Shown here: piece after piece, positions 7,406 to 46,258 of the stretch | Layout of the letters: the number at the start of each line of letters is the position of its first letter | How positions within the stretch are numbered: the stretch's first letter is position 1 | DNA from: Patescibacteria group bacterium | GTDB taxonomy: Bacteria; Patescibacteriota; Patescibacteriia; JAXHNJ01 | Assembly (NCBI GenBank): GCA_041649715.1 | Contig: JBAZMP010000001.1 | Span: 309,287-373,286 of the forward strand | Reading direction: 5' to 3' | DNA length: 64,000 nucleotides | Made by a program: the position numbers and the translations under genes | Notes under the pieces: model-generated | Databases searched by the model: none | The model's input: the letters and a program-made list of their open reading frames with translations, nothing else | What the model was told of the DNA's origin: nothing

Positions 7406-7409
7406 AAAT

Positions 7410-7695: not shown

Positions 7696-8283
7696 ATGAA
7701 ATGGCTAGATTTTGAGCGAAAAATTAAGAGTAAAAATATTAAGCTGTTCACGCCGCTTGATGTGCAGAGATTTTTAGGCCGGTCTAAAATAGCCGCCCGT
7801 TTTTTGATCCATCGCCTGAAAAAAAATGGCTATATTGTGAGCCTCAAACGCGGTTTGTATAAGCTGTCCGATGAACAAATTCCGGATCTGTATCTGGCCA
7901 ATAATATTTACGCCCCCTCGTATGTTTCCCTGGAATTCGCCCTTTCGTACCACGGAGTCATTCCCGAAACTGTCTATGAGATAACTTCGGTTACCACCAA
8001 GGCCACCCGCCGGTTTGAGGCGCTGGGAAAAGTTTTTTCTTACCACAAAATAAAAAAACCGGCTTTTACCGGCTATGTCATCCAAAAACAGGGCGGGTTG
8101 GGTTTTCACGTCGCCGAACCAGAAAAGGCTTTCGTGGATGCGAATTATTTTCGGCTCTTGGACGGCCGAAAACCGCTGTCCCGCTTCAACAAGGATAAAA
8201 TTGATTTAAAAAAGGCCTTGTTTTATGCCGCTCTTTTCGGCAATCAGAAACTTAACAATATAATTAAAACAACGCTTCAATGA
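7696..8283 (+). CDS. abiEi: Type IV toxin-antitoxin system antitoxin AbiEi (winged-HTH transcriptional regulator)
   Basis: 195 aa. The N-terminus MKWLDFERKIKSK...FTPLDVQRFLGRSKIAARFLIHRLKKNGYIVSLKRGLYKL is typical of AbiEi. The gene overlaps the downstream gene by 4 nt (ATGA). Confidence 0.75.
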   Translation: MKWLDFERKIKSKNIKLFTPLDVQRFLGRSKIAARFLIHRLKKNGYIVSLKRGLYKLSDEQIPDLYLANNIYAPSYVSLEFALSYHGVIPETVYEITSVTTKATRRFEALGKVFSYHKIKKPAFTGYVIQKQGGLGFHVAEPEKAFVDANYFRLLDGRKPLSRFNKDKIDLKKALFYAALFGNQKLNNIIKTTLQ

Positions 8284-9023
8284 TTTCCCAGGAATTAATA
8301 AAAAAAATAGCCAGTCAGAATAAAACAGCGGATTTTCCCAATATTGTCCGCGAGTATTTTCAGCACCTTTTTTTATCCGAGCTCTATAGATTATCCGGCG
8401 CCGAGAATTTGCTTTTTAAGGGCGGGACCGCTTTGCGCATTATCTACGGCAGTCCGCGCTTTTCCGAGGATTTGGATTTTACCCTGATCGGCGTTGAAGG
8501 TTACCGGAAAAAGGAATTCGCGGAAAGCCTGTTTCTCAGCGTTTTGACCGAGATTGAAAAAATCGGCATTAAGGTGGAGATAAACCGGAAGTCGGATGAG
8601 ACCCGCGAGGGTTATTTTGGCGATGCGAACTATCAGGTTTATGATTATCCCGAAACGTCCGTGAGTATAAATATATCCTCAAGAGAGGGAAAAGATATTA
8701 AGGGCGAGATTGATTCCATCGCCAATGATTTCATACCGACTTATAATATTCTGCATCTGTCAAAAAATGTGTTGGTGGAAGAAAAAATAACGGCCGCGAT
8801 CACTCGGGCGAAACCCAGAGATTTTTACGATGTCTATTTTATCCTTAGAAAAAATTTGCTGGCGACAGAAAATAAAAAAATACTCCCTGACATCCTTGAT
8901 AAATTGAATAACACTGATATTAATTTTACCCAGGAATTAGGCATTTTCTTGCCGAAGGATCAGCAGCAAATAGTGAAAGATTTCAAGAATATTTTAACTT
9001 CTGAAATAAAGCGTTATATTTAG
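8280..9023 (+). CDS. abiEii: Type IV toxin-antitoxin system toxin AbiEii (DUF1814 nucleotidyltransferase)
   Basis: 247 aa. It has the nucleotidyltransferase motif LFKGGTALRIIYGSPRFSEDLDFTL (GS...DxD), and its size and operon partner are typical. Confidence 0.75.
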   Translation: MISQELIKKIASQNKTADFPNIVREYFQHLFLSELYRLSGAENLLFKGGTALRIIYGSPRFSEDLDFTLIGVEGYRKKEFAESLFLSVLTEIEKIGIKVEINRKSDETREGYFGDANYQVYDYPETSVSINISSREGKDIKGEIDSIANDFIPTYNILHLSKNVLVEEKITAAITRAKPRDFYDVYFILRKNLLATENKKILPDILDKLNNTDINFTQELGIFLPKDQQQIVKDFKNILTSEIKRYI

Positions 9024-9036: not shown

Positions 9037-10059
9037 ATGGAAACCAAAAATCCAATGAAAACCAAAAAGTGGCTCTGGTACGCCGCAGCGGCTCTTTTAT
9101 GTTTTATCGCCATCGCCGCTTTTGCCTGGAGCGCGGCCAATAAGAGCAAGAATACGAACGCGGTGGCCGTGGCCAATAAAAACGTAAATTCGGCTGCTAA
9201 TTCCAACGCCGCAGCTGGTCAGAACGCCAATAGCAGTCTGGCCAATACCAATACGAACACCAATAATAATACTAATGCCAGCGCCAATACCAACGCTAGC
9301 CAGATCGTGACCGCGGCCAAGACCATTGATGAAACAGCCATTACGCTGGTGCAAAAAAGTACCGGCCACTGCGAAGCCTTGGCTCCTTTGGACTGGTCTT
9401 TTGTCACCAATGCCGAAGGGAGCGGCGCGGATCTTTATTCCGCCGATAAATCCTTGAAAGCCGCCATGCACGCCGGCTGGGGGATCTCGGCCGTCTATAC
9501 CTACATGTATCCGACCGTGGATTCTTTTCTTTCCGCCTGGCTCGGTTATGCTTATACCGGTTCATTTACCAACGGAGGCATTACCTTGGCCGCCGCCCAG
9601 GATGTTTATGAAGGTTTTATCCAGCGGGAATTTACCACCTCAAACGGCCGCAAAGGGGTGGCGATATACAAGACCTACAATTTCGGCGACCCGACCATGT
9701 ACGTGGTTTCCGTTTATATCGCCGATACGGCCAGCGACAAGTGGGAGACCAGCGGCGCTCAGCCATTTTACGTCGCCCTGACCATCCGCTGCGTCACCCA
9801 GCTCCGGCCGGTAACTTCCAGCGTTGATCCTTACACTTCTGATCCGGGCAGTTCTTCTGACAATCCCGAAGTGGGCCTGTCTGACAAATGGACCGAAGCC
9901 ATTATGGGTTATGAAAATGTCTATTCCCCGACCACGGGGGAGCATTACGAAGCGCCCCTTACTTCCGAGTGGCAGGGCGGTCCGCAAGGAACCGGTTATT
10001 ACCGCAGCCTTCCCAATGGCGGTTATGAAAAACTTGAACCGGGGTTTGGAGAGTACTAG
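9037..10059 (+). CDS. Membrane-anchored extracytoplasmic protein of unknown function with an Asn-rich linker
   Basis: 340 aa. A basic N-terminus and one TM helix (WLWYAAAALLCFIAIAAFAW) are followed by an NTN/NAN low-complexity linker and a globular domain. GC content is markedly higher than in the neighbouring genes. Confidence 0.6.
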   Translation: METKNPMKTKKWLWYAAAALLCFIAIAAFAWSAANKSKNTNAVAVANKNVNSAANSNAAAGQNANSSLANTNTNTNNNTNASANTNASQIVTAAKTIDETAITLVQKSTGHCEALAPLDWSFVTNAEGSGADLYSADKSLKAAMHAGWGISAVYTYMYPTVDSFLSAWLGYAYTGSFTNGGITLAAAQDVYEGFIQREFTTSNGRKGVAIYKTYNFGDPTMYVVSVYIADTASDKWETSGAQPFYVALTIRCVTQLRPVTSSVDPYTSDPGSSSDNPEVGLSDKWTEAIMGYENVYSPTTGEHYEAPLTSEWQGGPQGTGYYRSLPNGGYEKLEPGFGEY

Positions 10060-10830
10060 GCAGATAATATTATTGTCATACTGAGGAGCCATGAGATCCT
10101 GAGTCGCATCGAAGGACGAATGGCGTCTCGAAGTATGACCGTTTAGACACATAAAAGCCTGTCTATCCTTCGAGGCTCGCATTGCTCGCACCTCAGGGTG
10201 ACAGTTTTAGTTTTATTTGAAATTCGGTGCATCGGATTTAATCGTCAGGCGGCGAAGCGTTGACGAGCCGCCACTAAGAAAAAGTTAGCAGTAATTTAAG
10301 CTTTCAGCAGGCTGGGGTCTCTGCCTACGGCAGACAGGTGGGGGCTTCATCGCCTTAAATATTTTACAGCGTTTTTTGCTATTAAAAATAACGAAAATTT
10401 AATGGGCGAGGGGGTCCGGGGGAAAAACTGAAAGCGAATGGGCTACGCGGTAAAACCAACCCCCTGTGCTCGCGGTTTTTTTCCCCCGGGGCTTTTGGTT
10501 CTTTTGGCCTCAAAAGAACAAGACAATCAGCCTTGCCCCCTAAAATAAAAATTTTCTAAAGGTAAAAACTCACCCTTCGAGGCTCCCATTCGACGCGGCT
10601 CATGCTCGCACCTCAGGGTGACAGTTTTATTATTTTGGTTTTTGGAGTCTGCCCTGAGTGGCAACGAAGGGGTTACAAAAGTTGAAATACTTCGGCACAG
10701 ACTAAAGATTGAGTAAGGGATAAACAGAAGAAACCGTCTACCCTTCGAGGCTTAGGCGTTGCCTTCGCACCTCAGGGTGACAATTTTAGTTTGCATTTAT
10801 CAACTTTATAAGATTAAAATAAAAGACCCT
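10060..10830. repeat. Non-coding island densely packed with structured repeat modules (families A and B, a TTAGCAG..GCTTTCAGCA module and an AGCCTTGCCCCC..AAAATAAAA module)
   Basis: Family A copy at 10409..10530. Family B arms at 10158..10215, 10571..10640 and 10735..10795. A CTGCCCTGAGTGGCAACGAAGGGGTTACAAAAGTTGAAA module at 10644..10690. No credible ORF. Confidence 0.7.
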
Positions 10831-11637: not shown

Positions 11638-12531
11638 ATGCAAAAAAAATCCTGGCTTAGCCTCATTTATTTTCTGGTTTTTGGCTTATTAATAATTTTT
11701 ACTTTCTTATTCAAAAGCCGTTCTCTGCTGTATGTAGTAATTCCCATTTTTTTTGGTTTTATCGTGGTTTTGAGTTTGATAAATGTTGGAGGCAAGATGT
11801 TTTCTTTTTCCAAAGGTTTGATGACCATGAGTAAAACCGGGCCGGTTTTTACCTCTAAGGTCTGGTCTTGGCGGGAAGGGGAAACGATTGATTTCGCCGA
11901 TATTTTTCCGGGGTTGAAGGACGTGACCTCATTTTTCAGTGAAATGCCACTGCCGAAAATAAAACCGGAGAGAGTGGCGATTGGAGAAAAAGAGGGGGTG
12001 AATTATAATATTTACCGGCTTAATTTCACGAATATCGTAAAAGTTCCGGCCAGCCGCAAACCGGGCTTCCGGCCGCTGATAATCCACGGGGTTAAAGCGC
12101 CGGGAATGAGCGGGGGCTTGAATTCAAGTGTGAGCCAGAGCTTTAATATTTTGCAGGCCAGATTGACTTTTCCTGGATCTTTCCCCGGCCGTTTGATTAT
12201 CCAAAGAGTTGCCGGGCCGACCTTGGGCCGTGATATTGATCTGGAAAGCGTGGAATTTAACAAAAAAGTTCAGGTCTATACCAATCAGGCCAAAATCGCT
12301 TACCAGATTTTATCCCCGGATTTTATGGACTGGTATTTGAAACTGCCTGATCAGCCGGTTATCGCTTTTGACCAACAGATATGTTATTACACCCTGATCG
12401 GATTCAGTAATAAGGGTGAGGAAGAGATTACCGCCGATATTGAACAATTGATTGACCGCGTCCTGCATTCAGGGGCTTTAACCTTATCCCAAATCCCAAA
12501 TCCTAAATCCAAAACAAATCCCAATATCTAA
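11638..12531 (+). CDS. Hypothetical membrane protein (two N-terminal TM helices plus a globular domain)
   Basis: 297 aa. TM helices are LSLIYFLVFGLLIIFTFLF and VVIPIFFGFIVVLSLINV. The last roughly 12 codons (PNPKSKTNPNI) are encoded by an AAATCC-type repeat. Confidence 0.55.
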   Translation: MQKKSWLSLIYFLVFGLLIIFTFLFKSRSLLYVVIPIFFGFIVVLSLINVGGKMFSFSKGLMTMSKTGPVFTSKVWSWREGETIDFADIFPGLKDVTSFFSEMPLPKIKPERVAIGEKEGVNYNIYRLNFTNIVKVPASRKPGFRPLIIHGVKAPGMSGGLNSSVSQSFNILQARLTFPGSFPGRLIIQRVAGPTLGRDIDLESVEFNKKVQVYTNQAKIAYQILSPDFMDWYLKLPDQPVIAFDQQICYYTLIGFSNKGEEEITADIEQLIDRVLHSGALTLSQIPNPKSKTNPNI

Positions 12532-13175
12532 ATCTGAAATTCGAAACACGGCGGCGTCGTCTCATTTTATGGTGAACAAAAGTAATCAGAAAGCGTGGGG
12601 GCTCCGGGGGTTTTCCTCAGTCCGCAGGGGTTTTAGCGTCTATTTACGCAAATCTTGAACGAATTAAAACCCCCGGGGCTCTTTGGTACTTTCTGGCCCC
12701 AGAAAGTACAAGCAAACAGCCTTGCCCCCAAAAATAAAATTTTCAAAAAAGTAAAACTAACCCTTCGACGCGGCTCAGGGTGACAAGAGGAGAAAGGCGG
12801 CGAAACCAGGGGCGAGCCGCCTAGTGAATAAAAATTAGCAGATACTTTATGCTTTCAGCAAAACAGGGGTCCGGGGGGAATGCTCGACTTTGCGGCTTTT
12901 AGCATTTATATGAGTTTTAAGGGGGCAATCATTCCCCCCGGAACTTTTGCTACTGGAGCCTGCCCTGAGTGGCACCGAAGGGGTTACAAAAGTTGAAAGA
13001 TAGCATCTAAAAAAACAGCTAAAGTAAAACAAAATAATAAACCAAAAAATTACTCTCGCCCGTCTTACGCATAGGTCGATCTTTTTGGCTAATTTAAGCA
13101 GAAATAACAAAAAGACGTTAATTTTGACTAAATCGGCTAAAATCGCTATAATAAAGTTAAATACAGGAGGGGAAA
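12532..13175. repeat. Non-coding island of structured repeat modules (family A copies 3 and 4, a family B fragment, and others)
   Basis: GGGGGCTCCGGGGGTTTTCC...AAAACCCCCGGGGCTC at 12596..12680. GGGGTCCGGGGGGAATG...CATTCCCCCCGGAAC at 12866..12955. CTGCCCTGAGTGGCACCGAAGGGGTTACAAAAGTTGAAA at 12958..13000. Confidence 0.7.
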
Positions 13176-14480
13176 TTGAGTAAACAAATGCCGTATATTT
13201 TGTTATCAGACATCAAGCAATATTTAGGCCAAGAGGTGCTTCTTAAAGGCTGGGTTTTTAACGCCCGGTCTTCCGGAAGCCTCTTTTTTTTACAGCTGCG
13301 GGACGGCTTGGGAGAGGTTCAGGGAGTAGTTTCCAAAAAAGAAGTCAGCCCGGAGGTTTTTGACGCCGCAAAGAAGCTTCAGATAGAATCTTCCGTGGAA
13401 GTCACCGGGATTTTGAAAGAAGAGGCTAAATCGCCCTCGGGTTTTGAAATTCAGGTTAAGGATTTGAAAGTCATTCAGATAGCCTCCGATTACCCGATCG
13501 CCAAAAAAGAGCACGGCCCGGATTTTCTGATGGATAACCGGCATTTGTGGCTTCGTTCTTCCCGCCAGCGGGCGATTTTAAAAATAAGGGATTCGGTTAT
13601 TTGGGCCGCCCGCAAATTTTTTAAAGACAATAATTTTACGCTGACGGATTCGCCGATCCTGACGCCGACCGCCTGCGAAGGGACGACCACGCTTTTTAAA
13701 ACCAAATATTTTGAGGAAGACGCTTATCTCGCGCAGTCCGGACAATTATACATTGAAGCGACGGCCGCCGCCCTGGGCCGGGTTTATGATTTCGGGCCTA
13801 CATTCCGGGCGGAAAAATCCAAGACCCGTCGTCACCTGATGGAATTCTGGATGCTGGACGCGGAAGCGGCTTTTGTGGAGCATGAGGAAAACTTAAAGAT
13901 CCAGGAAAATCTGATCAGTTCCATTGTTAAATATGTTTTGGAAAATAATAAAAAAGAGCTGGCAGTTTTGGAAAGAGACATAAAACCTTTGGAAAAAATT
14001 AAGCCGCCTTTTTACCGCAAGAAATATGAAGAGGTTATTAAGGATCTGCAAAGCAAGGGAAGCCCGATAAAATCCGGGGATGATTTCGGCGGAGACGAGG
14101 AAACCCTGATTTCCAAGGATCTGGACAAACCGGTTTTTGTCACGCATTGGCCGAAAAGTATAAAACCTTTTTACATGAAACAGGATCCCCGAAATCCCAA
14201 ATTAGTTTTGAATGCTGATTGCCTCGCCCCGGAAAGTTTTGGCGAGATCATCGGCGGTTCGCAAAGGGAAGATGATTATGAAACTTTGAAAGCCAACATG
14301 GAAAAAGCGAAAATTCCCATCAAGGATTACCAGTGGTATTTGGATTTGCGCCAATACGGCACTTTTCCGCACTCCGGTTTTGGCTTGGGAATTGAAAGAA
14401 CCGTGGCCTGGATCTGCGGATTAAAGCATATCCGCGAGACGATACCGTTTCCAAGAATGCTGAATAGACTTAGGCCATAG
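13176..14480 (+). CDS. asnS: Asparagine--tRNA ligase
   Basis: 434 aa. Class II motif 2 is FRAEKSKTRRHLMEFWMLDAE and motif 3 is GFGLGIERTVAWICGLKHIRETIPFPR. It has an N-terminal OB anticodon-binding domain and the size typical of AsnRS. A TTG start sits 5 nt after AGGAGG. Confidence 0.85.
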   Translation: MSKQMPYILLSDIKQYLGQEVLLKGWVFNARSSGSLFFLQLRDGLGEVQGVVSKKEVSPEVFDAAKKLQIESSVEVTGILKEEAKSPSGFEIQVKDLKVIQIASDYPIAKKEHGPDFLMDNRHLWLRSSRQRAILKIRDSVIWAARKFFKDNNFTLTDSPILTPTACEGTTTLFKTKYFEEDAYLAQSGQLYIEATAAALGRVYDFGPTFRAEKSKTRRHLMEFWMLDAEAAFVEHEENLKIQENLISSIVKYVLENNKKELAVLERDIKPLEKIKPPFYRKKYEEVIKDLQSKGSPIKSGDDFGGDEETLISKDLDKPVFVTHWPKSIKPFYMKQDPRNPKLVLNADCLAPESFGEIIGGSQREDDYETLKANMEKAKIPIKDYQWYLDLRQYGTFPHSGFGLGIERTVAWICGLKHIRETIPFPRMLNRLRP

Positions 14481-14499: not shown

Positions 14500-14672
14500 T
14501 TTAAATCCTAAATTCTAAATCCGAAAATCTAAACAAATCTTAAATTCTAAATTCCAAATTCAAAACCGGTTTGGAACATTGGAAAATTAGGGCTTCGAAT
14601 TTGTTTCGGATTTAGGATTTCGCGCTTCGAATTTATCTGAATTTTGGTGCTTGTAATTTGGAATTTTGAAGA
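14500..14672. repeat. Long AT-rich palindromic hairpin of the AAATYC/GAATTT family (probable bidirectional terminator)
   Basis: AAATCCTAAATTCTAAATCCGAAAATCT...TTTCGGATTTAGGATTT. The two arms are near-perfect reverse complements across more than 60 nt. Confidence 0.65.
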
Positions 14673-14699
14673 ATTATATCGTATAGATTATTAATTACC

Positions 14700-15125
14700 A
14701 TGCCTGAAACAATTTTCAACCCCCCTGGTTATCAGAAAAATAATAAATCAAAGAAAATTGTGATCATTGTTCTTGTCATTCTTGTTTTGTTAGTCGCGGC
14801 TTTCTTTTTCGGCTATTTTTACCAGAAAAATAAGTGGAGTGTAAGCGACATATTTACTTTTGAATCAGATTGCGCCAAAGAAGGCGGGAGTATTTCCGTT
14901 ACTGGTAAGTTCAAGAAGTGCTGCGGGTCTTTAAAGCCAGTCCGCCCATATAGGATGATAGATACGGCGCAAGACACAAAACCACTTCTATTAACAGTTG
15001 ATTTCTATAAGGGAGACATTGCTTGTACCGGTCTTCCTGGCGGTATGGATTGCGTCCGTTGCGGGAATGGCAAATGCGGTAAAGGCGAGAATATCTGTAA
15101 TTGCCCGCAGGATTGCAAGGAATGA
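14700..15125 (+). CDS. Signal-anchored Cys-rich extracytoplasmic small protein
   Basis: 141 aa. A TM anchor ending in GYFY is followed by a domain with 11 Cys (CCGSLKP, CTGLPGGMDCVRCGNGKCGKGENICNCPQDC). Confidence 0.6.
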   Translation: MPETIFNPPGYQKNNKSKKIVIIVLVILVLLVAAFFFGYFYQKNKWSVSDIFTFESDCAKEGGSISVTGKFKKCCGSLKPVRPYRMIDTAQDTKPLLLTVDFYKGDIACTGLPGGMDCVRCGNGKCGKGENICNCPQDCKE

Positions 15126-15146
15126 GAATATTAGTATTAAAATAAT

Positions 15147-16421
15147 ATGGAAGATCAAACTCAACCCAATCCGACAAAGGAAAAACGCCCTCAAAAAACC
15201 AGCTTGCTGGCCATTCTTATTTTGATCGCCGTCCTGCTCGGGGCGATCATTATCGCCGGCTACTTCTATTTTGTTCCGGCGGACAGGGAGAATAAAAACA
15301 CCAATCAGGTGGCGGTCAGTTCCAATTCTAATGAAAATCAGAACACCAGCCAGCTTTTAGGCGGAGATGAAGATGAGCACGGCTGCAAAGGTTCGGCCGG
15401 CTATTCTTGGTGCGAAGCTAAGCAGAAATGCTTGAGAATTTGGGAGGAGGTCTGCCCAAGTAGCTTTAATAATTTGGGAAATAGCGCCCCCACTTTATCG
15501 GGCGAATTCTGGATGATTCAAAATTATACCGCTAAATTAAAGAGTATTAATATTGCCAATAAAGAGATTAAAGAATGGACGGAATATCCAAATCAACCTC
15601 AAAATAGCGAAAATGAAATACCGGCGCCAAAAGGTAATCACATGTTATATAATAAAAAAGATACTGACGGAAATTGGGCCTTGTATGTTTCTGAGACCAA
15701 TGGTAAAAATGAAAAACTTATTACGACTGGCGGGGTGTGTACAGATGGTCCGTGTTCCAAAGAAAATACTTATGGAGTGGGCAAAATTTCTCCGGATGGG
15801 CAATATGTTTCATTCAGAAAAGGAGAAAATAGCATTGTTAAAAATCTTGTCACTGATAAAGAAACCATTCTGCCCTTAAAACTGACTCTCGCTCCTGCGG
15901 CTTTTACTCCTCTTCAGACATATGTTTACACAGTTTCACAAAAGGAAAATGAGGTTAATTATTACCTGGAAATCGGCAAGTTATCAGATACTGAATTTCG
16001 CTTGATTAATCCCGCACTTTCCCTTTTTTATGCCATTGATTTTTCGCCGGACGAAAATTATTTTGCCATTAGTGGTAATCAGGGAGTTTGCATCTATGAG
16101 ACAAAGACCGGCCAGTTATTAGACAAAAAAGAGAGTAATGATATGTCAGGAATTTACGAAATAGTTTGGCTATCAAACAATAAGCTTATTTTGCGGACTC
16201 ATAATTCAGTTTTGCATCAATTTACTTTAATCGATCATAAAATTACCGAAGAAATAATATACAAAGCCGAATATTTAGACTCCCTTTTTAGAATAGATGA
16301 CAATAATGTTCTTTTGCGATCCGGCGGTAATGATTTGATAGTGATTAATACGACTACCGGAACTATAACCGAAGTTTATTCAAGTGACGATTATTTCGCT
16401 ATTTTAGGGTCAAAGGAATAA
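15147..16421 (+). CDS. Signal-anchored secreted protein with a Cys-rich module and TolB-like beta-propeller repeats
   Basis: 424 aa. The N-terminal leader KEKRPQKTSLLAILILIAVLLGAIIIAGYFYFVPADRENKN is shared with the next gene. Repeats such as SPDGQYVSF and FSPDENYFAISG are propeller-like. Confidence 0.6.
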   Translation: MEDQTQPNPTKEKRPQKTSLLAILILIAVLLGAIIIAGYFYFVPADRENKNTNQVAVSSNSNENQNTSQLLGGDEDEHGCKGSAGYSWCEAKQKCLRIWEEVCPSSFNNLGNSAPTLSGEFWMIQNYTAKLKSINIANKEIKEWTEYPNQPQNSENEIPAPKGNHMLYNKKDTDGNWALYVSETNGKNEKLITTGGVCTDGPCSKENTYGVGKISPDGQYVSFRKGENSIVKNLVTDKETILPLKLTLAPAAFTPLQTYVYTVSQKENEVNYYLEIGKLSDTEFRLINPALSLFYAIDFSPDENYFAISGNQGVCIYETKTGQLLDKKESNDMSGIYEIVWLSNNKLILRTHNSVLHQFTLIDHKITEEIIYKAEYLDSLFRIDDNNVLLRSGGNDLIVINTTTGTITEVYSSDDYFAILGSKE

Positions 16422-16447
16422 TTATATTAAATAGTCGAAAAAAATAA

Positions 16448-17311
16448 ATGCCAAACCAACCTCAAATTAATCCGCCAAAGGAAAAACGCCCTCAAAAAAC
16501 CAGCTTGCTGGCCATTCTTATTTTGGTCGCCGTTCTGCTCGGCGCGATCATTGTCGCCGGCTATTTCTATTTTGTTCCGGCGGACAGGGAAAACAAAAAT
16601 GCCAGCCAGGCGGCGGAAAACTCTAATATTAATGTAAATTTAAATAATAATGAAAATCAGAATAATAATTCAAATAATAGCGCTAGCGCAAATGAGGTAA
16701 AGACAGCCATTGGCTTGGTCAGCTTAAGCTGTGCCACGAAATCTGACTGTGTGTTAATTGGTAAAGAGAAAGATTATGATTGTTGCGGCATTGGTAGTTG
16801 CCTCGACTATTCTCAGGGGATTTGGGTGGCGGTGAATAATCGTTCTTTCCAAGAAATTATCGAGCGACATAATTGTAATATAGCCTGCCCTGATAATATG
16901 GAGGTATGTTTTTATAATGATTATTATGAAGTAGGATGCCAGAATAACCGCTGTCAAACGATAAAAGTAACTAAGACTACTGAAAATTCCGATTCAAATG
17001 AAATAAGTGTAATCGGCGGTCAGGTGAGTTTGAGTTGTTCTTCAAAGCAAGATTGTCGATTGATTGACAAAGAAAAGGACTATACCGTTTGTTGTTCTCA
17101 ATATTCTCAACCGGACTATACCAAAGGGATTTGGGTAGCGGTCAATAGTAGTTCTTTCCAAAAAATTGTTGGCTCTAACAGCGCCTGCAAATTGAAAGTC
17201 TGCCCGGATAATATGGAAGTATATTATAGCGGTAATGTTCCGTATGAAGTGGCATGCCAGAATAACCGCTGTCAAACGATAAAAATAAACAGGACTATTG
17301 TTGAGTATTAA
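16448..17311 (+). CDS. Signal-anchored secreted protein with a tandem duplicated 8-Cys domain
   Basis: 287 aa. The leader is about 92 percent identical at the DNA level to that of 15147..16421. There are two roughly 90-aa repeats (VSLSC..DC.LI.KEKDY..CC......GIWVAVN..SFQ.I......C....CPDNMEV.Y......EV.CQNNRCQTIK). Confidence 0.65.
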   Translation: MPNQPQINPPKEKRPQKTSLLAILILVAVLLGAIIVAGYFYFVPADRENKNASQAAENSNINVNLNNNENQNNNSNNSASANEVKTAIGLVSLSCATKSDCVLIGKEKDYDCCGIGSCLDYSQGIWVAVNNRSFQEIIERHNCNIACPDNMEVCFYNDYYEVGCQNNRCQTIKVTKTTENSDSNEISVIGGQVSLSCSSKQDCRLIDKEKDYTVCCSQYSQPDYTKGIWVAVNSSSFQKIVGSNSACKLKVCPDNMEVYYSGNVPYEVACQNNRCQTIKINRTIVEY

Positions 17312-17317
17312 AGAATA

Positions 17318-17368
17318 TGGACCGAATATTCACTTCGCAAACCTTAGACAAGGTAGACAAAAAATAAA
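17318..17368 (+). pseudogene. Remnant duplicate of the aspS 5' end (encodes MDRIFTSQTLDKVDKK then a stop)
   Basis: About 50 of 55 nt identical to 18660..18714, the true aspS start. Confidence 0.7.
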
Positions 17369-17376
17369 TAAAATTT

Positions 17377-18648
17377 ATGTTAAATCAAATTCAACAAAAT
17401 CAGCCTAACCAAAAGAAGCCGAAAAAAAGTCTCGCTCCAATATTAACTCTCGGTTTCATCGCCGCCCTTTTAATAGCGGCCATGTCTTTTGGGTACGTGA
17501 AATACATCAAGAATGGGAACGAGAATGCGAACAATTCAGTGGCCTGCACCATGGAGGCCAAGCTCTGTTCGGACGGCTCGGCCGTTGGCCGCGTGCCGCC
17601 TACTTGCGAGTTCGCGCCCTGCCCCAATGAAAATGGGAATTCAAATGTTAATTTAAATGCCAATGTCTCGGTCAATGCCAATGAAAATTTGAATACCAAC
17701 ACAGCGGTCAGCGAAGTAGAAAAATGGCAGAATTATCAACTGGAATACGATAAATTTGGCAAGCTCACTTCTTTTTCCTATAAGTATACCTATAATCAAC
17801 AGACAAAGATTGTTACTCCATTTGATATCGCATTATATCGCGGCTCGGTGACTCCTTATGGTGTTATTTTTTTTAAAGTCGGAGAAATGAGGCAAGCCAC
17901 GGGTACGAATATCGGAGAATTTAGCTATGAATACGGTATCAATCCGGATTTTCAATTGTTTAATTATCAGACCCAGTCTTTTAAATCATTGCCGGCTTTT
18001 TCTTTGAAACTGGCCGGAAGCCAATTTGAAAGAATTTACGCCCTGCATTTTTCCGCGACCGAACCAAAGATATTGGTTGAAATCGGAGAATACGATACCA
18101 GTAGCTCTCATTTCGAGCCGGGACTGGTAGAAAGCCAGCCGGTGAAGACCCACGGGGTGGTCTATGACGTCGTCACCAACCAGTATTTGACCGGCGACCC
18201 CTTGACGATCTATTTAGATCTGATCGGCCAAACCACGACATTGTGGAACGGTATGTCCTGGGATAGTCTGCACCAGATCGCGGTGGCGGCGCCGGGCGGG
18301 GAAGGATGTGGCGCTTATAATTCTTTGACAGTTGTCTACCTGGATCAAGAAAGAGCCGTGACCGTCGGCGGTGAAGGCAGTTTCAATTTTAAAAAAGAAA
18401 TATGCAACCCAAGTAACGGGGTAAGCCCTGATCGTAAATGGTTTGTTTTAGATGGATGCAATAACGAAAATAAATTCGACGTCAATCTCTTTAATTACGC
18501 CAGTTTTCCTGAGCCAATTCTAAAAAAACTCTCCATCTCGGTTTCGAATAATAATGTTTGTCATGTTTATGTGAAAGAATGGAATATCAGTCAGACCTAC
18601 CCGATCATTACTTTTAATGACGGCACGATTATTAATTTTAACGAATAA
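17377..18648 (+). CDS. Signal-anchored secreted protein of unknown function (Asn-rich linker)
   Basis: 423 aa. An N-terminal TM anchor is followed by NGNSNVNLNANVSVNANENLNTN and a large globular domain. The gene is flanked by the aspS-start direct repeats. Confidence 0.6.
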   Translation: MLNQIQQNQPNQKKPKKSLAPILTLGFIAALLIAAMSFGYVKYIKNGNENANNSVACTMEAKLCSDGSAVGRVPPTCEFAPCPNENGNSNVNLNANVSVNANENLNTNTAVSEVEKWQNYQLEYDKFGKLTSFSYKYTYNQQTKIVTPFDIALYRGSVTPYGVIFFKVGEMRQATGTNIGEFSYEYGINPDFQLFNYQTQSFKSLPAFSLKLAGSQFERIYALHFSATEPKILVEIGEYDTSSSHFEPGLVESQPVKTHGVVYDVVTNQYLTGDPLTIYLDLIGQTTTLWNGMSWDSLHQIAVAAPGGEGCGAYNSLTVVYLDQERAVTVGGEGSFNFKKEICNPSNGVSPDRKWFVLDGCNNENKFDVNLFNYASFPEPILKKLSISVSNNNVCHVYVKEWNISQTYPIITFNDGTIINFNE

Positions 18649-18659
18649 AATATAAAATA

Positions 18660-20039
18660 ATGGACCGCATTTTCACTTCGCAAACCTTAGACAAGGTCGA
18701 TAAAAAAATAAAGCTGGCCGGCTGGGTGCACCGGACGCGCCGGATGGGCTCGATCGTTTTTATTGACCTGCGCGACCGCGAAGGCCTGATCCAGGTGGTT
18801 TTTGACAAGCATTTTAAAGAAGCCCGGGAATTGCGGCCGGAATTTGTCATTGAGTTGGAGGGTAAAGTAGTCAAGCGCGAATTAAAAAATATCAATACGG
18901 ATTCGCCGACCGGCGAAATAGAGGTGCAGGCCACAAGCCTGAAAGTGCTGGCCAAAGCGAAGACTCCGCCTTTTGAAATTGAAAATGAAGAGCGGCAGGC
19001 CAGCGAGGAATTAAGGCTTAAATACCGCTATCTGGATCTGCGGCACGAAAGAATGAAAAAGAACCTGATCTTGCGCCACAAAGTGATCAAATTCATCCGC
19101 GACTGGCTTTCTACCTCCGGTTTTATGGAAATTGAAACGCCGCTTTTGACCAAGGGCACGCCGGAAGGGGCCAGAGAGTACATCGTCCCTTCCCGCAATT
19201 TTGCCGGCCAATTCTATGTCCTGCCGCAAAGCCCCCAGCAGTTCAAGCAATTGCTGATGGTGGCGGGCTTGGAAAAATATTTCCAGATCGCCAGATGCTT
19301 CCGCGATGAAGACGCCAGGGGAGACCGGCAGGCGGAATTTACCCAATTAGACTTGGAAATGTCCTTTGTCTCCCAGGAAGATATATTGAAGCTTTCCGAG
19401 GAATTGTTCATTCAGCTGGTCCAAAAAATCTGTCCGGAGAAAAAGATCGCCAAGATTCCTTTTCCGCGCTTAAGTTATGATGAGTCCATGAAAAAGTATA
19501 AAAGCGACAAGCCGGATCTGCGGAAGAATAAAAAAGACAATAACGAACTGGCTTTTGCCTGGGTTTTGAATCCTCCGCTTTTTGAAAAAAGCGTGACGGA
19601 AAAAAAGTGGGTTTCCACCCACCATCCTTTTACTATGCCGGTCGAGGATGATATTGAATTATTAGATAAAGAGCCAAAAAAAGTTAAAGCGCAATCCTAT
19701 GATATAGTTTTAAATGGTTTTGAAATCGGTACCGGGAGTGTCAGAATCCACGAGGCTTCCTTACAGTACAAAATATTCCAAATTTTGGGTCTGAACGAAA
19801 AAGAGATCCAGGAGCGCTTCGGCCATATGCTGGAGGCTTTTTCCTACGGCGTGCCGCCGCACGCGGGCATCGCCCCGGGTTTAGACAGGTTAGTCATGAT
19901 ATTGGCCGGCGAGCCGAATATCCGGGAAGTGATCGCTTTCCCCAAGACCGCCGATGCCCGAGATTTAATGATGGGAGCACCGTCGGAGTTACCTGAGAGT
20001 CAGGTTAAAGAGGCATATATTAAGAAACTGAAAAATTAA
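18660..20039 (+). CDS. aspS: Aspartate--tRNA ligase (short form lacking the bacterial GAD insertion)
   Basis: 459 aa. Motif 2 is FQIARCFRDEDARGDRQAEFTQLDLEMSF. The GSVRIHE motif is present. Motif 3 is PPHAGIAPGLDRLVMILAGEPNIREVIAFPKT. Confidence 0.85.
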   Translation: MDRIFTSQTLDKVDKKIKLAGWVHRTRRMGSIVFIDLRDREGLIQVVFDKHFKEARELRPEFVIELEGKVVKRELKNINTDSPTGEIEVQATSLKVLAKAKTPPFEIENEERQASEELRLKYRYLDLRHERMKKNLILRHKVIKFIRDWLSTSGFMEIETPLLTKGTPEGAREYIVPSRNFAGQFYVLPQSPQQFKQLLMVAGLEKYFQIARCFRDEDARGDRQAEFTQLDLEMSFVSQEDILKLSEELFIQLVQKICPEKKIAKIPFPRLSYDESMKKYKSDKPDLRKNKKDNNELAFAWVLNPPLFEKSVTEKKWVSTHHPFTMPVEDDIELLDKEPKKVKAQSYDIVLNGFEIGTGSVRIHEASLQYKIFQILGLNEKEIQERFGHMLEAFSYGVPPHAGIAPGLDRLVMILAGEPNIREVIAFPKTADARDLMMGAPSELPESQVKEAYIKKLKN

Positions 20040-20067: not shown

Positions 20068-20195
20068 ATAAATTTCAAATTACAAATCTCAAGTTCCAAA
20101 TAAATTCCAATGACCAAAATTTCAAACTTTTTAAACTATCTGGTGTTTTGGTCATTTGATCATTGAAAGTTGGTGCTTGGAATTTGGAATTTGTT
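20068..20195. repeat. Long palindromic hairpin of the AAATYC family after aspS
   Basis: ATTCCAATGACCAAAATTTCAAAC...GTGTTTTGGTCATTTGA...TTGGAATTTGGAATTT. The arms are reverse complements. Confidence 0.6.
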
Positions 20196-20280
20196 TGACT
20201 AATATTTACAAAATAGTCGTGAACATCTCAAAATTACAGAAATATATTCTTATCACGGCCTACCTAAACCGCGGCAAAAA

Positions 20281-20542
20281 AATGAGCCGAAAAGGGTTTG
20301 AGAAATTTTATTATTCATATAAAAACAAGCCGAAAAGAGAGGATATTCAGAATATCATTACCAAGTCTTCGGAGCGCCTGATAGACAAGGAAATGCTCGT
20401 CGGCTACGGCCGGAGGACGCCCCACAAATGGTTTATCGACGAGATAAGCCTGACCGCCAAAGGCAAAAGAACAGCCAAGAAAATGTTAGGGGAACAGCAG
20501 CAGCTTCCTTTTAAAATTAACACAAAGGGAAAAAAGAAATGA
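20281..20542 (+). CDS. Hypothetical small basic protein; start uncertain (the track ORF starts at 20156 inside the hairpin)
   Basis: MSRKGFEKFYY... (87 aa). It overlaps the next gene by 4 nt (ATGA). The upstream in-frame ATG at 20156 lies within the palindrome and is less likely. Confidence 0.4.
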
Positions 20543-22032
20543 AAAAAATCATCATTATTTTCGGCTTATTATTGATCCTGGTGCCGATTAAAACTTCCGC
20601 CGACGGGATGATTGTGCCGATGCCAGATTATTACATGTATGAATCCGACCAGCGGGCGGTCATTTTGTACGAAGGCGGCACCCAGACGGAAACCATGGTC
20701 TTGTCGGTTAAGTTCCAGGGCAATGCCAAAGATTTTGCCTGGATAATTCCCGTGCCGAACCAGCCGGAGATAACCAAGGGATCGGATACTTTGTTTACGG
20801 CTGTTTCGGAGTTGACACAAGGCAATTATTATAATTATTACGGTGCGTCCGAACTGGGCTTGGGCTCGACCCGGAATGTCACTCAAGATGTAAGCGTGGT
20901 CGAGACCAAAAAAGTCGATTATTACGATATCACGACGCTGACCTCTACTGATAGCCAGGCCTTAGTTAAGTGGCTGAACGACAACGGTTATCCGTATCCC
21001 GCCGGCAGTGAATATATTTTTAACAGTTACATTACCAATAACTGGTACTTTGTCGCCTTGAAGATCGACACCACCGCCCTGGCCGGTACGGCCGCCACCA
21101 CTGATCTAAGGGAGGGCCACGCCACCCCGCTCAAATTGACGTTTAAGGCCAAAAATTTGGTTTACCCTTTAAAAATCTCTTCTGTCGTTACGGAATCTAT
21201 CACTAAAAAAACCAATACCAATACGAATAACAACCTGAATACCAACAGCCCCTATATTTTGGAGGATACAAGCACCGGTCCGGCCGTCGATAGCGCCATT
21301 TATCCTTACTATCCTTCGCAGGTGAGCGTGGAGCTTTATATTCTGGCCGACCATAAAAAGACACTGGCGAATTTCACCACCGCTTACGGCAATTGGGTGA
21401 AAAAAAGCGTTATCGAAGATTGGGCGGCGAATGACCAGGGCGATCCCTTGCTTTCCCCCTCCCGGGACAAATATTTTTTGACCAAGCTGACCCGGCAAAT
21501 GACCTATTTCCAGATGAGCGAGGATCTGTTCCCGCGGGACGCCAGCGACAATAAGAAAGTGATCAGCGGCAGTCAGTATGATTGGCTGAATCTTGAAGTT
21601 ATCCTTATGTTCCTTTTGGCGGTCAGCCTGTACACGGTTTTTATCTTTGCCATCGGTATTTTTTCGCCCCTGGGTCTGGCCTTTGTTATTTTTACGCTGG
21701 TCCAGTTTAAGGCAAAGAGTAGGGCCTGGCGGATAATCGCCTGGATCGTTCAGATAGGAGTGACGGCGGTATATTATCTGGTTGCGGCCGTGATCATTCT
21801 CGCCTTTTTAGGCAGTCCATACGGTCTGGCCGAACTGCCCCGCAGCCTGATTTCCGGCGGTTACAGTTCCAGCGAATTTCTTTCCTCTGATAGTCTGATC
21901 TGGCTCTTTACCTTTTTGCTGCCCCTGGCCGTTTTCCTGGCCCTGCCGGTTTTGACCCTGGTCTGGCAGTCAAGATACCGGAAAAATCGGGCCTTAAAAC
22001 CCGCGGCCATTAACAATTTAAATAAAAAATAA
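20539..22032 (+). CDS. Secreted protein with a C-terminal 4-TM membrane domain, unknown function
   Basis: 497 aa. Signal peptide MKKIIIIFGLLLILVPIKTSA, a large extracytoplasmic domain with a TNTNTNNNLNTN linker, and C-terminal hydrophobic helices. Confidence 0.6.
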   Translation: MKKIIIIFGLLLILVPIKTSADGMIVPMPDYYMYESDQRAVILYEGGTQTETMVLSVKFQGNAKDFAWIIPVPNQPEITKGSDTLFTAVSELTQGNYYNYYGASELGLGSTRNVTQDVSVVETKKVDYYDITTLTSTDSQALVKWLNDNGYPYPAGSEYIFNSYITNNWYFVALKIDTTALAGTAATTDLREGHATPLKLTFKAKNLVYPLKISSVVTESITKKTNTNTNNNLNTNSPYILEDTSTGPAVDSAIYPYYPSQVSVELYILADHKKTLANFTTAYGNWVKKSVIEDWAANDQGDPLLSPSRDKYFLTKLTRQMTYFQMSEDLFPRDASDNKKVISGSQYDWLNLEVILMFLLAVSLYTVFIFAIGIFSPLGLAFVIFTLVQFKAKSRAWRIIAWIVQIGVTAVYYLVAAVIILAFLGSPYGLAELPRSLISGGYSSSEFLSSDSLIWLFTFLLPLAVFLALPVLTLVWQSRYRKNRALKPAAINNLNKK

Positions 22033-22035
22033 TCT

Positions 22036-22572
22036 ATGGTCCAATATTACATCCCGGAAAAGAAGGCGGCCGAGGAAAAATCCAAAATGGAGAAAAAGAA
22101 AAAAGACGAAATATACTCCTGGAGCATTTTTTTCGGCGTGCTTCTGACGGTCGTTCTCATCACCCTTTATGAAAAAACAATGCTCGATCTGCCCCGTTTT
22201 TTCAACCCCTATTATCAGGATTGCCATCGGGCCAACCTGATCCTTTGTGAGACGATCAAGTATGAGGCGGCCCGTCTGTTCTTGTTTTTGGCGATAGTTG
22301 CCCCTCTTCTGGTCATCGCCTTGATTTTGTATCTGGCCGGCCGAAAAAAACCGGTCAAAAGCCAGTCCAAGATCCTGAAAAGGGCTTATTACATTTCGGT
22401 CCTGGTCGTGGCCTCTCATCTGTTTATCGCCTTCGCCCTTTTCCTTTTTCGCCATTACCGCGAGATCGGCGTTTATGTCATCTTGGGCTGTTTTGCCCTC
22501 ACGTTCATCATTCTGATCATTTGGCTGCAGCGGCGGCACAACCGGCCGAAAGAAGGCATTATTAATCAATAA
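22036..22572 (+). CDS. Hypothetical integral membrane protein
   Basis: 178 aa with four predicted TM helices. The overlapping minus-strand ORF is charged low-complexity and was rejected. Confidence 0.5.
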   Translation: MVQYYIPEKKAAEEKSKMEKKKKDEIYSWSIFFGVLLTVVLITLYEKTMLDLPRFFNPYYQDCHRANLILCETIKYEAARLFLFLAIVAPLLVIALILYLAGRKKPVKSQSKILKRAYYISVLVVASHLFIAFALFLFRHYREIGVYVILGCFALTFIILIIWLQRRHNRPKEGIINQ

Positions 22573-46037: not shown

Positions 46038-46258
46038 ATCTAATGTTTACCCCCGGCGAAATCGCGGACGGGCTACGCCTAGCCGTCATTCCGAACTTGG
46101 TTCGGAATCTCCCACTAGAATACGCGTAATTAATAACGGAGATCCTGAAACGAGTTCAGGATGACGGGTGGGGGAATAGGCGGAAAAATTTATTTGAAAA
46201 ATAAAAGAAGCCCAAACTCCGTTGAGTCGGGCTTCACCGTAAGTTCGAAATGATCTTT

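What the first reader, a model, noticed from the sequence alone, without database searches (positions are those of the whole stretch)
17318..18714. Gene 17377..18648 is bracketed by about 55-bp direct repeats copied from the start of aspS
ATGGACCG(A/C)AT(A/T)TTCACTTCGCAAACCTTAGACAAGGT(A/C)GA(C/T)AAAAAAATAAA occurs at 17318..17368, where it encodes MDRIFTSQTLDKVDKK then a stop. It occurs again at 18660..18714, which is the real aspS N-terminus. The intervening gene therefore looks inserted, with duplication of the target. Alternatively it was exchanged by recombination between copies of this sequence. A 55-bp duplication is much longer than a typical transposon target-site duplication.
Basis: seen in the sequence. 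Interest (0 to 1): 0.65.

Follow-up and report, generated by a model that had tools for sequence, protein, structure and literature searches.

The report
Orphaned aspS start: a recombination scar
A 52-base copy of the start of the essential aspS gene sits upstream of an inserted surface-protein gene in an uncultured Patescibacteria genome, and it is best read as a scar left when two versions of a fast-changing gene array were recombined, not as a transposon footprint.

Summary
The repeat is real. Copy A lies at 17317..17368 and copy B at 18660..18712. Copy B is the true aspS start. They match at 44 of the first 48 bases, and copy A has one A fewer in an A-run, which creates a stop after 16 codons. 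A separately assembled contig shows the same structure.

Relatives show that asnS and aspS were originally adjacent. In this genus the gap between them holds a variable array of membrane-anchored surface-protein genes, which differs even between genomes whose AspRS is 90% identical. None of more than 90 related loci carries an aspS-start remnant.

All four differences between the copies are synonymous third-codon changes (P about 0.001-0.004). Two of copy A's variants occur in a real aspS of a relative. Copy A therefore looks like the head of a second, diverged aspS allele, not a decayed duplicate of copy B.

No transposase, integrase, terminal inverted repeats or attC-like structure was found.

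Best reading: an illegitimate join, probably helped by nearby homology, fused two array versions. This is inferred, not shown. A possible second 15-base relic precedes the neighbouring cassette and ends at the same aspS position.

This is an ordinary kind of scar in an interesting hotspot.

The parts
13176..14480 (+). asnS (asparaginyl-tRNA synthetase), the conserved left border of the variable array
   Evidence: Pfam tRNA-synt_2 plus an OB anticodon domain. It lies directly upstream of aspS in L011 (33-nt gap), L018 and L009. Identity with L094 is 81% nt and runs to 14680.
14700..15125 (+). Cassette p141: short tail, one transmembrane helix and a Cys-rich extracellular part
   Evidence: ORF. 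Hydrophobic helix at residues 20-38. No counterpart at this position in relatives. GC3 is 0.43 against 0.52-0.65 in flanking core genes.
15147..16421 (+). Cassette p424: type-2 anchor, Asn-rich linker and a variable domain
   Evidence: Its first 200 nt, starting 8 nt before the ATG, are 84% identical to the start of p287 (D1). The anchor is homologous to L094 p356 and L095 p363. GC3 is 0.38.
16434..16448 (+). Possible second, shorter relic of the aspS head (GTCGAAAAAAATAAA, equal to aspS +37..+53 minus 2 nt), abutting the ATG of p287
   Evidence: The pattern GTCGA-N0-2-AAAAAATAAA occurs twice in the window (here and in the real aspS) against 0.01 expected. A local alignment score of 23 was reached by 6 of 2875 random windows and 16 of 2000 shuffles. 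The pattern was chosen after seeing the match, so this is tentative.
16448..17311 (+). Cassette p287: type-2 anchor and two repeated Cys-rich domains
   Evidence: ORF. Internal repeats at 16805-16982 and 17114-17300. Only its N-terminal anchor has homologues elsewhere. In L095 a type-2-anchor cassette abuts aspS directly. GC3 is 0.40.
17317..17368 (+). Copy A: orphaned aspS head of 16 codons followed by TAA (17365..17367); no gene body follows
   Evidence: It starts 5 nt after the p287 stop and ends 8 nt before the p423 ATG. It differs from copy B only at 4 synonymous sites and by 1 nt in the A-run.
17377..18648 (+). Cassette p423: chimeric head, type-1 anchor, Cys motif, Asn-rich linker and a roughly 300-aa conserved domain with a beta-propeller-like predicted fold
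   Evidence: Homologues P0002-P0007 lie in unrelated contexts with no flanking repeats. The anchor at 17422-17513 is 81.5% identical in nt to L094 p260, the aspS-proximal cassette there. The AlphaFold model has pLDDT 72, and its Kelch/TolB matches have low TM-scores of 0.3-0.44. There is no Pfam hit.
18660..18712 (+). Copy B: the functional head of aspS
   Evidence: It is contiguous with the full aspS reading frame.
18660..20039 (+). aspS (aspartyl-tRNA synthetase, 459 aa), the conserved right border of the array
   Evidence: Pfam tRNA-synt_2 at 3.6e-117. Orthologues of 90% aa and 81% nt identity occur in L094, L095 and L088. Downstream synteny is conserved.

Best explanation
Copy A is the orphaned 5' head of a second, diverged aspS allele. 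In this Patescibacteria genus, asnS and aspS flank a fast-evolving array of genes for membrane-anchored surface proteins. Relatives hold at least two arrangements. In one, a 'type-2 anchor' cassette abuts aspS. In the other, a 'type-1 anchor' cassette abuts aspS. The window looks like the first arrangement, cut 53 nt into its aspS, joined to the second arrangement with its own intact aspS. The most likely route is uptake of DNA from a congeneric relative. Integration would then use one homologous crossover in conserved flanking sequence and one illegitimate join in the A-rich tract at aspS +43..+53. This is homology-facilitated illegitimate recombination. Only products that keep an intact aspS can survive, so the displaced head remains as a scar. 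Shown: the repeat, its allele-like divergence, the variable hotspot, and the absence of mobile-element features. Inferred: the mechanism, the route of DNA entry, and which side was the incoming DNA.
For: 1. The hotspot. asnS lies next to aspS in L011, L018 and L009, and 1.6-4.6 kb of unrelated genes lie between them in L021, L024, L010, L089 and L092. Genomes with 90% identical AspRS (L094, L095) have different cassette sets, while synteny outside the array is conserved.
2. The cassettes. Every cassette has a short tail, one transmembrane helix, an Asn-rich linker and a variable domain. The 5' anchors are shared while the bodies differ. Cassette GC3 is 0.38-0.49, against 0.52-0.65 in core genes.
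3. Both parental arrangements exist. In L095 a type-2 cassette abuts aspS. In L094 and L092 a type-1 cassette abuts aspS. The window has type-2 p287, then the aspS head, then type-1 p423, then aspS.
4. Allele-like divergence. All 4 differences are synonymous third-position changes, with P = 0.0013-0.0044 depending on transition bias. Copy A's CGA and ATA match AGA ATA in the real aspS of L094. Divergence between A and B (4/48) equals that between copy B and the aspS heads of other species (L095 4/48, L088 5/48).
5. The scar is lineage-specific. No aspS-head remnant occurs in more than 90 related loci.
6. Scars are a feature of this hotspot. L092 carries an orphan cassette head at 9900-9957, just before its aspS. 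The window has a possible second relic before p287 that ends at the same aspS position, +53.
7. No mobile-element features. No transposase or integrase Pfam domain was found among the window's called genes and ORFs of at least 100 aa. There are no terminal inverted repeats, and p423 has no phage or plasmid relatives.
8. Precedent. [quoted passage not shown] Natural competence has been shown in Saccharibacteria, which belong to Patescibacteria (PMC10633639).
Against: No parental genome was found; the closest relatives are about 81% identical in nucleotide sequence. The donor, the direction of transfer and the homologous crossover point are therefore all unknown. A test for mosaicism along aspS showed nothing, because synonymous sites are near saturation at this distance. 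The statistical argument rests on only four substitutions. Recombination between alleles as diverged as the two heads suggest is inefficient. L094 has the same type-2 then type-1 cassette order with no relic between them, so the history may be more complex than a single join. If both relics truly end at +53, that regularity fits a site-preferring process better than random illegitimate joining. Competence genes were not examined in this genome.
Confidence: 0.55

Rival explanations
1. Local duplication within the genome. The gene was inserted, or the region rearranged, by a process that copied the first 52 nt of the resident aspS, such as repair synthesis, replication slippage or unequal exchange. 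The two copies then drifted apart.
For: The copies are each other's closest match over the first 48 nt, tied with L095 (44/48). The event is specific to this lineage. Only four substitutions exist, so a chance pattern cannot be strictly excluded.
Against: An unconstrained copy A should change at any codon position, yet 4 of 4 differences are synonymous (P about 0.001-0.004). With L088, L094 and L095 as outgroups, three of the four changes fall on copy A's branch, and all are silent. If the four silent changes had accumulated in copy B alone, the implied elapsed time would predict many changes in a neutral copy A. Two of copy A's variants occur in a functional aspS elsewhere.
Confidence: 0.15
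2. Docking-site model. The conserved 53-nt aspS head acts as a recurrent attachment site. A circular or linear cassette carrying a copy of the head integrates by a single crossover within it, either Campbell-type through RecA or through an unrecognised site-specific recombinase. Each event pushes an older head-plus-cassette unit upstream, as in an integron but without an integrase.
For: The direct repeats bracket exactly one gene and share a 26-nt identical core long enough for a crossover. A possible second relic lies directly before the next cassette, p287, and ends at the same aspS position, +53. All cassettes share one orientation with tiny spacers.
Against: No integrase or recombinase was found in the 64-kb window. 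No attC-like hairpins or significant structure were found. No other genome of the genus carries head relics in its array, although the arrays turn over. Homologues of p423 elsewhere are not flanked by repeats. The second relic is only 15 nt long and was recognised after the fact.
Confidence: 0.12
3. Copy A is kept because it is useful. It preserves the aspS translation-initiation region as a 16-codon upstream ORF that ends 9 nt before the p423 start, so that ribosomes are delivered to p423 by termination and reinitiation.
For: The ATG and all 16 codons are intact, and the peptide is identical to the AspRS N-terminus. The stop lies 9 nt before the p423 ATG and is in frame with it. p423 has no obvious Shine-Dalgarno sequence. 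Silent-only differences would also fit purifying selection on the peptide.
Against: Translational coupling needs an ORF, not a conserved peptide sequence, so it does not explain silent-only change. Other cassettes, and p423 homologues elsewhere, manage without such an ORF. The possible second relic has no ATG. This reading explains retention, not origin, and it is compatible with the main explanation.
Confidence: 0.08
4. Assembly artefact: a chimeric join, or a collapse of strain variants, created a false duplicate.
For: The source is a metagenome-assembled genome. Strain mixtures can produce local misassemblies.
Against: The same structure appears in a 382-kb ENA contig and in a separately built Logan contig from run SRR8542065. 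The protein database also records these proteins on a 608-kb contig of an NCBI MAG, but its DNA was not read here. The longest exact repeat is 26 nt, shorter than the assembly k-mers. Copy A is joined to unique sequence on both sides.
Confidence: 0.02

Closest known systems
Orphan gene fragments left by sequential displacement or homology-facilitated illegitimate recombination, as in Vibrio cholerae T6SS effector-immunity arrays and Rhs/CDI orphan arrays (PMC5361080 and references therein)
   Same: A conserved anchor gene borders a variable region. New modules arrive next to the anchor, and older material is pushed away. Truncated gene pieces remain as scars. No dedicated recombinase is involved.
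   Different: Here the anchor is an essential housekeeping gene, aspS. The relic is its 5' head rather than a toxin 3' end or an immunity gene. The cargo is single-pass surface-protein genes in a Patescibacteria genome. The mechanism is inferred from one scar and possibly a second.
Homology-facilitated illegitimate recombination in naturally transformable bacteria: Acinetobacter, Streptococcus pneumoniae and Pseudomonas stutzeri (de Vries and Wackernagel 2002; Prudhomme et al. 2002; Meier and Wackernagel 2003, as cited in PMC5361080); also E. coli conjugation (PMC3240628)
   Same: One homologous crossover plus one illegitimate join, often at a short microhomology, inserts foreign DNA beside a conserved anchor. 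The topology gives exactly the observed product if the illegitimate join falls at +53 of the resident aspS.
   Different: The donor sequence is unknown, so microhomology at the junction cannot be verified. Transformation in this organism is assumed from work on Saccharibacteria (PMC10633639).
Integrative elements that insert into the end of a gene and carry a replacement end, for example SXT in the 5' end of prfC and many islands in tRNA 3' ends (from general knowledge, not checked here)
   Same: Direct repeats derived from a gene end flank the inserted DNA, and the target gene stays intact.
   Different: Those elements encode an integrase and are kilobases long with many genes. Here the insert is a single 1.3-kb gene with no recombinase, and the repeats differ in an allele-like way.
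Integron gene-cassette arrays
   Same: A same-orientation array of single-gene cassettes, with new cassettes possibly entering at one end.
   Different: There is no intI, no attI and no attC hairpins. The cassettes share 5' coding anchors rather than 3' recombination sites.

Membership tests
Transposon / insertion-sequence target-site duplication | Short direct repeats (typically 2-15 bp) that are identical when made | tested here: not met
   The repeat is 52/53 nt with four substitutions, all synonymous, and one indel.
Transposon / insertion-sequence target-site duplication | Terminal inverted repeats at the ends of the inserted segment | tested here: not met
   No inverted pair has arms near both 17369-17376 and 18649-18659.
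Transposon / insertion-sequence target-site duplication | A transposase gene in the element or nearby | tested here: not met
   The insert encodes only p423, which has no Pfam hit. No transposase domain was found among the window's called genes and ORFs of at least 100 aa.
Site-specific integrative element (attL/attR plus integrase) | A tyrosine or serine recombinase encoded by or next to the element | tested here: not met
   None was found among the called genes of window 8.6-64 kb (precomputed Pfam) or the ORFs of at least 100 aa in 1-13 kb.
Site-specific integrative element (attL/attR plus integrase) | An identical core shared by the two flanking repeats | tested here: met
   A 26-nt identical core, TTCACTTCGCAAACCTTAGACAAGGT, is shared. 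It is equally expected from conserved coding sequence.
Site-specific integrative element (attL/attR plus integrase) | The same element is found at the same site in other genomes, or in an excised form | tested here: not met
   p423 homologues lie in unrelated contexts without flanking repeats. No relative has the insert. No viral, plasmid or phage relatives were found. Circular forms cannot be tested with these tools.
Integron cassette array | An intI integrase with an adjacent attI site | tested here: not met
   No integrase domain was found in the window.
Integron cassette array | An attC imperfect palindrome at the 3' end of each cassette | tested here: not met
   Spacers between cassettes are 5-26 nt. 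No inverted repeats lie at cassette ends. Folding of the junction regions is not exceptional: z = -2.3 for a flank-to-flank stem and z = 0.7.
Integron cassette array | Single-gene cassettes in one orientation whose content varies between relatives | tested here: met
Recombination scar of the HFIR / sequential-displacement kind | A conserved anchor gene directly bordering a region whose content differs between close relatives | tested here: met
   asnS and aspS are conserved. The genes between them differ in the window, L094, L095, L089 and L092 and are absent in L011.
Recombination scar of the HFIR / sequential-displacement kind | A truncated copy of the anchor or displaced gene retained beside the inserted gene | tested here: met
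   Copy A at 17317..17368. There is also an orphan cassette head in L092 at 9900-9957.
Recombination scar of the HFIR / sequential-displacement kind | The relic and the functional copy differ as two alleles would, that is, divergence accrued under coding constraint | tested here: met
   4 of 4 differences are synonymous (P = 0.0013-0.0044). Copy A's variants are shared with the L094 aspS. The sample is small.
Recombination scar of the HFIR / sequential-displacement kind | Microhomology between donor and recipient at the illegitimate junction | tested here: inconclusive
   The junction lies in AAAAAA(A)TAAA next to an AT-rich leader. No donor sequence is available.
Recombination scar of the HFIR / sequential-displacement kind | A mosaic (donor versus recipient) tract in the anchor gene next to the insert | tested here: inconclusive
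   Sliding-window identity and 2:2 site patterns along aspS show no clear breakpoint. The relatives are about 19% diverged and roughly star-like.
Recombination scar of the HFIR / sequential-displacement kind | A route for DNA entry (competence or conjugation) in the organism | not tested
   Only a T4SS-pilin-like gene and a TraG/VirD4-like gene were seen in the window. Competence has been shown for Saccharibacteria (PMC10633639), not for this lineage.

The most novel reading that the evidence does not exclude
The first 53 nt of the essential aspS gene serve as a recurrent docking site, free of any dedicated recombinase, for capturing surface-protein gene cassettes. Each capture would bring a fresh aspS head and leave the old one upstream, building the array stepwise. 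The window would preserve two successive captures: the full relic before p423 and the 15-nt relic before p287, both ending at +53. This would be an integron-like cassette acquisition system in Patescibacteria that relies only on a conserved essential-gene head and host recombination.
Probability: 0.12. Interest if true: 0.6.

Novelty: new member of a known kind. Interest (0 to 1): 0.35.

Why it matters
Patescibacteria have tiny genomes and depend on cell-surface contact with hosts, but how they renew their surface-protein repertoire is poorly known. The scar marks a specific, datable recombination event at a hotspot between two conserved tRNA-synthetase genes. At that hotspot, membrane-anchored proteins with shared anchors and swapped outer domains turn over even between genomes of one genus. 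The silent-only divergence of the two heads points to DNA exchange between diverged lineages. If closer relatives or population reads are examined, the locus offers a direct way to measure how often, and by what mechanism, these uncultured bacteria import surface genes. As a single feature, however, it is an ordinary by-product of recombination.

Tried and rejected
1. Other copies of the repeat. There are none in the window. Two JGI metagenome scans, one strict and one codon-degenerate, found nothing. That collection evidently lacks these samples, because even the L095 head, which fits the second pattern, was not returned. The IMG/VR scan also found nothing.
2. Mobile-element links for p423. 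There was no match in phages, plasmids or viral contigs.
3. A recombinase in the window. None was found.
4. A mosaic breakpoint in aspS, to decide which head is foreign. No signal was seen; the relatives are too distant.
5. RNA structure in the repeat. Copy B is not exceptional. The z = -2.3 around copy A comes from a flank-to-flank stem and was not pursued.
6. Head relics in the relatives' arrays, searched by blastn-short and tblastn. None was found.
7. A relic upstream of p424 and p141. Alignment scores there are at chance level.
8. A close homologue of p287, to find an uninterrupted p287-aspS locus. Only its N-terminal anchor has relatives.
9. GC3 as a guide to direction. The cassettes are AT-richer than the core genes, but this does not show which cassette came last.
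10. Rfam search of the non-coding repeats at 7.2-13 kb. No match.
Full report
**Observation**

The window holds two direct copies of the start of aspS. Copy A is at 17317..17368 and copy B at 18660..18712; copy B is the beginning of the real 459-codon aspS.
- The first 48 nt match at 44 positions, with a 26-nt identical core.
- Copy A then has six A's where copy B has seven, followed by a shared TAAA. Copy A therefore reads MDRIFTSQTLDKVDKK and stops at 17365..17367.
- The core occurs only twice in 64 kb, against zero expected. Similarity does not extend upstream of the ATGs or past +53.
Otherwise the description is correct.
- A separately assembled Logan contig (L003) carries copy A, the gene and copy B. 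It was checked base-for-base upstream (146 nt) and matches at protein level for p423 and the first 42 aspS codons. The longest exact repeat is 26 nt, so an assembly artefact is unlikely.

**Context**

The organism is an uncultured Patescibacteria bacterium; a source names the protein 'MAG: hypothetical protein WC528_01665'. All genes from asnS (13176..14480) to aspS run on the + strand with tiny spacers. Four genes lie between them: p141, p424, p287 and p423.
- Each encodes a short N-terminal tail, one transmembrane helix, an Asn-rich linker and a variable outer domain.
- p423 is a real, conserved protein. Six homologues share 35-44% identity with it in a multiple alignment, with invariant motifs such as PGGEGCG and CNP.N.
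- Its predicted C-terminal domain is all-beta and resembles beta-propellers only loosely (pLDDT 72; Kelch/TolB matches with TM-scores of 0.3-0.44).
- Its homologues lie in unrelated neighbourhoods, not next to aspS, and have no flanking repeats.

**Comparative evidence for a hotspot**

Among species representatives whose AspRS is 54-64% identical, asnS lies directly upstream of aspS in L011 (33-nt gap), L018 (about 190 nt) and L009 (about 300 nt). In L021, L024 and L010, 1.6-3.9 kb separates the two genes.

Closer relatives keep the surrounding synteny. The conserved order is cation ATPase, DUF2238, asnS, then the array, then aspS, small genes, a YbaK-like editing protein, ScpA/B, TIM, aldolase and GAPDH. 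The array content differs in each genome:

| Genome | Relation to the window's AspRS | Genes between asnS and aspS |
|---|---|---|
| Window | – | p141, p424, p287, p423 |
| L089 | 78% aa | five genes, including a serpin |
| L092 | 75% aa | a serpin and p281 |
| L094 | 90% aa, 81% nt | p433, p356, p260 |
| L095 | 90% aa, 81% nt | p363 next to aspS |

- The cassettes share 5' anchors across genomes while their bodies differ.
- The 'type-1' anchor (LAPILTLG...FGYVKYIKN) occurs in window p423, L094 p260, L092 p281 and L089 p250.
- The 'type-2' anchor (LLAILIL...AGYFYF) occurs in window p424 and p287, L094 p356 and L095 p363.
- Cassette GC3 (0.38-0.49) is below that of the flanking core genes (0.52-0.65).
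- The insertion reading for the region is therefore well supported.

**The scar is lineage-specific**

No aspS-head remnant occurs in any of more than 90 related loci, by nucleotide or translated search.

**What kind of duplicate this is**

The four differences between the copies are CGA/CGC, ATA/ATT, GTA/GTC and GAC/GAT. All are third-position and synonymous.
- Only 19-26% of random single-base changes in this segment are synonymous. Four of four therefore has P = 0.0013-0.0044, and all four falling at third positions has P = 0.009.
- In an alignment with the aspS heads of L088, L094 and L095, three of the four changes fall on copy A's side. Two of them (..GA ATA) are present in the functional aspS of L094.
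- The A-B distance (4/48) equals that between copy B and the heads of other species: L095 4/48 and L088 5/48.
- A copy made from the resident gene and left to decay should change at any position. Instead, copy A looks like an undecayed head of another aspS allele that diverged while still coding. This argues against a true target-site duplication and against an old neutral remnant.

**No mobile-element features**

- The bracketed segment has no terminal inverted repeats.
- The junction regions have no notable structure.
- No transposase or integrase domain was found among the window's called genes and ORFs of at least 100 aa.
- p423 has no relatives in phage, plasmid or viral collections.

**Most likely mechanism (inferred)**

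Both arrangements needed as parents exist in the genus. In L095 a type-2 cassette abuts aspS. In L094 and L092 a type-1 cassette abuts aspS.

The window reads as the first arrangement cut at aspS +53, joined to the second arrangement with its own complete aspS. A linear DNA fragment from a relative can produce exactly this with one homologous crossover in conserved flanking sequence and one illegitimate join. If p423 was the incoming DNA, the homologous crossover was in aspS. If p287 was incoming, it was in a shared anchor or in asnS. No duplication of recipient DNA is required, because the 'repeat' arises from the donor piece carrying its own head.

This is homology-facilitated illegitimate recombination. 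It is known from transformable bacteria and has been proposed for T6SS effector-immunity and Rhs orphan arrays (PMC5361080, PMC3240628). Natural competence has been demonstrated in Saccharibacteria (PMC10633639) but not in this lineage.

The illegitimate join lies in the only A/T-rich tract of the head, AAAAAAATAAA, next to an AT-rich cassette leader. Because aspS is essential, only outcomes that keep an intact head on the gene body survive. I could not determine which side was incoming: the nearest relatives are about 19% diverged, and no breakpoint is visible in aspS.

**Other scars in the same hotspot**

- In L092, the 134-nt spacer before aspS contains an orphan cassette head. The shared leader plus ATGAACAAAAAAGGCTT is 88% identical to the serpin cassette's start and runs straight into a stop.
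- In the window, the 15 nt immediately before the p287 ATG (16434..16448, GTCGAAAAAAATAAA) match aspS +37..+53 apart from a 2-nt gap.
- That pattern occurs only there and in the real aspS, against 0.01 expected. The alignment score is reached by 0.2% of random windows and 0.8% of shuffles.
- AAAAAATAAA occurs eight times on both strands of the window, and three of these lie in this 2.3-kb stretch.
- I recognised this second relic after the fact, so I treat it as tentative.
- If it is real, both relics end at the same aspS position. That would fit repeated use of a microhomology, or alternatively a docking-site process in which cassettes enter at the aspS head one after another. I give the docking-site reading about 12%, because no other genome of the genus shows head relics and no recombinase or recombination-site structure is present.

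**Other rivals**

- Translational coupling could explain why the intact 16-codon ORF persists 9 nt upstream of, and in frame with, p423. It does not explain the ORF's origin or the silent-only divergence, and other cassettes lack such an ORF.
- A local duplication followed by chance silent changes cannot be fully excluded with four substitutions.

**Verdict**

- The feature is best classed as a recombination scar, a known kind of by-product. Here it involves the head of an essential tRNA-synthetase gene at a surface-protein cassette hotspot in Patescibacteria.
- Interest is moderate to low for the scar itself. It is somewhat higher for the hotspot and for the untested possibility of recurrent, site-preferring cassette capture.

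Noticed in passing
L092 9900-9957 (relative with 75% identical AspRS): An orphan cassette head lies in the spacer just before aspS. It consists of a 40-nt shared leader plus ATGAACAAAAAAGGCTT, is 88% identical to the start of the serpin cassette, and is followed at once by a stop. This is an independent scar in the same hotspot.
   Followed up: yes
window 15139-15338 vs 16440-16639; 17377-17513; L094 10001-10163 and 11074-11171: The cassettes are modular. p424 and p287 share an 84% identical 200-nt 5' end. p423 combines a p287-like first 13 codons with the anchor of L094 p260. The same two anchor types recur across genomes with different outer domains, which suggests domain swapping behind conserved membrane anchors.
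   Followed up: partly
window 7185-7259, 12483-12557, 14502-14680, 20070-20205, 34791-34826, 37677-37841: A family of intergenic repeats is built from AAATCC/AAATTC-like units that form long imperfect hairpins. One sits right after asnS at the left edge of the array, and a related piece sits right after aspS. They may be terminators or a small repeated element.
   Followed up: no
window 7275-7485, 10388-10764, 12945-12998: Non-coding repeats of about 200 nt (76-89% identical in blocks) have a GGGGGTCCGGGGG...CCCCCGG stem. They flank the AbiEii toxin-antitoxin gene block upstream of asnS. Part of the repeat is also found inverted in L094. There is no Rfam match, even at E = 1.
   Followed up: partly
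window 17545-17625 (p423 residues 57-83): A short Cys motif, C.MEAKLC.DGS.VGR.PP.CEF.PCP, follows the membrane anchor. It is shared at 60-84% identity with dozens of otherwise unrelated Patescibacteria proteins (P0008-P0038). No Pfam family covers it.
   Followed up: no
window 16805-16982 vs 17114-17300: p287 contains an internal tandem duplication of a Cys-rich domain of about 100 aa, 83-86% identical in nucleotide sequence in blocks.
   Followed up: no
window 18660-20039: AspRS is only 459 aa. Tblastn matches to ordinary bacterial aspS genes span about 1.7 kb, against 1.38 kb here and in related Patescibacteria. The enzyme therefore appears to lack the usual bacterial insertion domain.
   Followed up: no
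window 20156-22572 vs L011, L008: The stretch between aspS and the YbaK-like editing gene is also variable. The two genes are separated by only 62-200 nt in L008 and L011. The window has three genes there (p128, DUF2330, p178), and L094, L095 and L089 have other sets.
   Followed up: partly
window 1214-3586, 8280-9023, about 35000, 60118-62697: Accessory genes elsewhere in the window include a fused type IIG/type I-like restriction-modification methylase, an AbiEii toxin, a T4SS-pilin-like gene and a TraG/VirD4-like coupling ATPase. The last two hint at a DNA-transfer apparatus.
   Followed up: no
window 45759-46038 vs 48465-48744: A 280-nt direct repeat (79% identical) corresponds to two DUF3467 paralogues separated by small genes of unknown function.
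   Followed up: no
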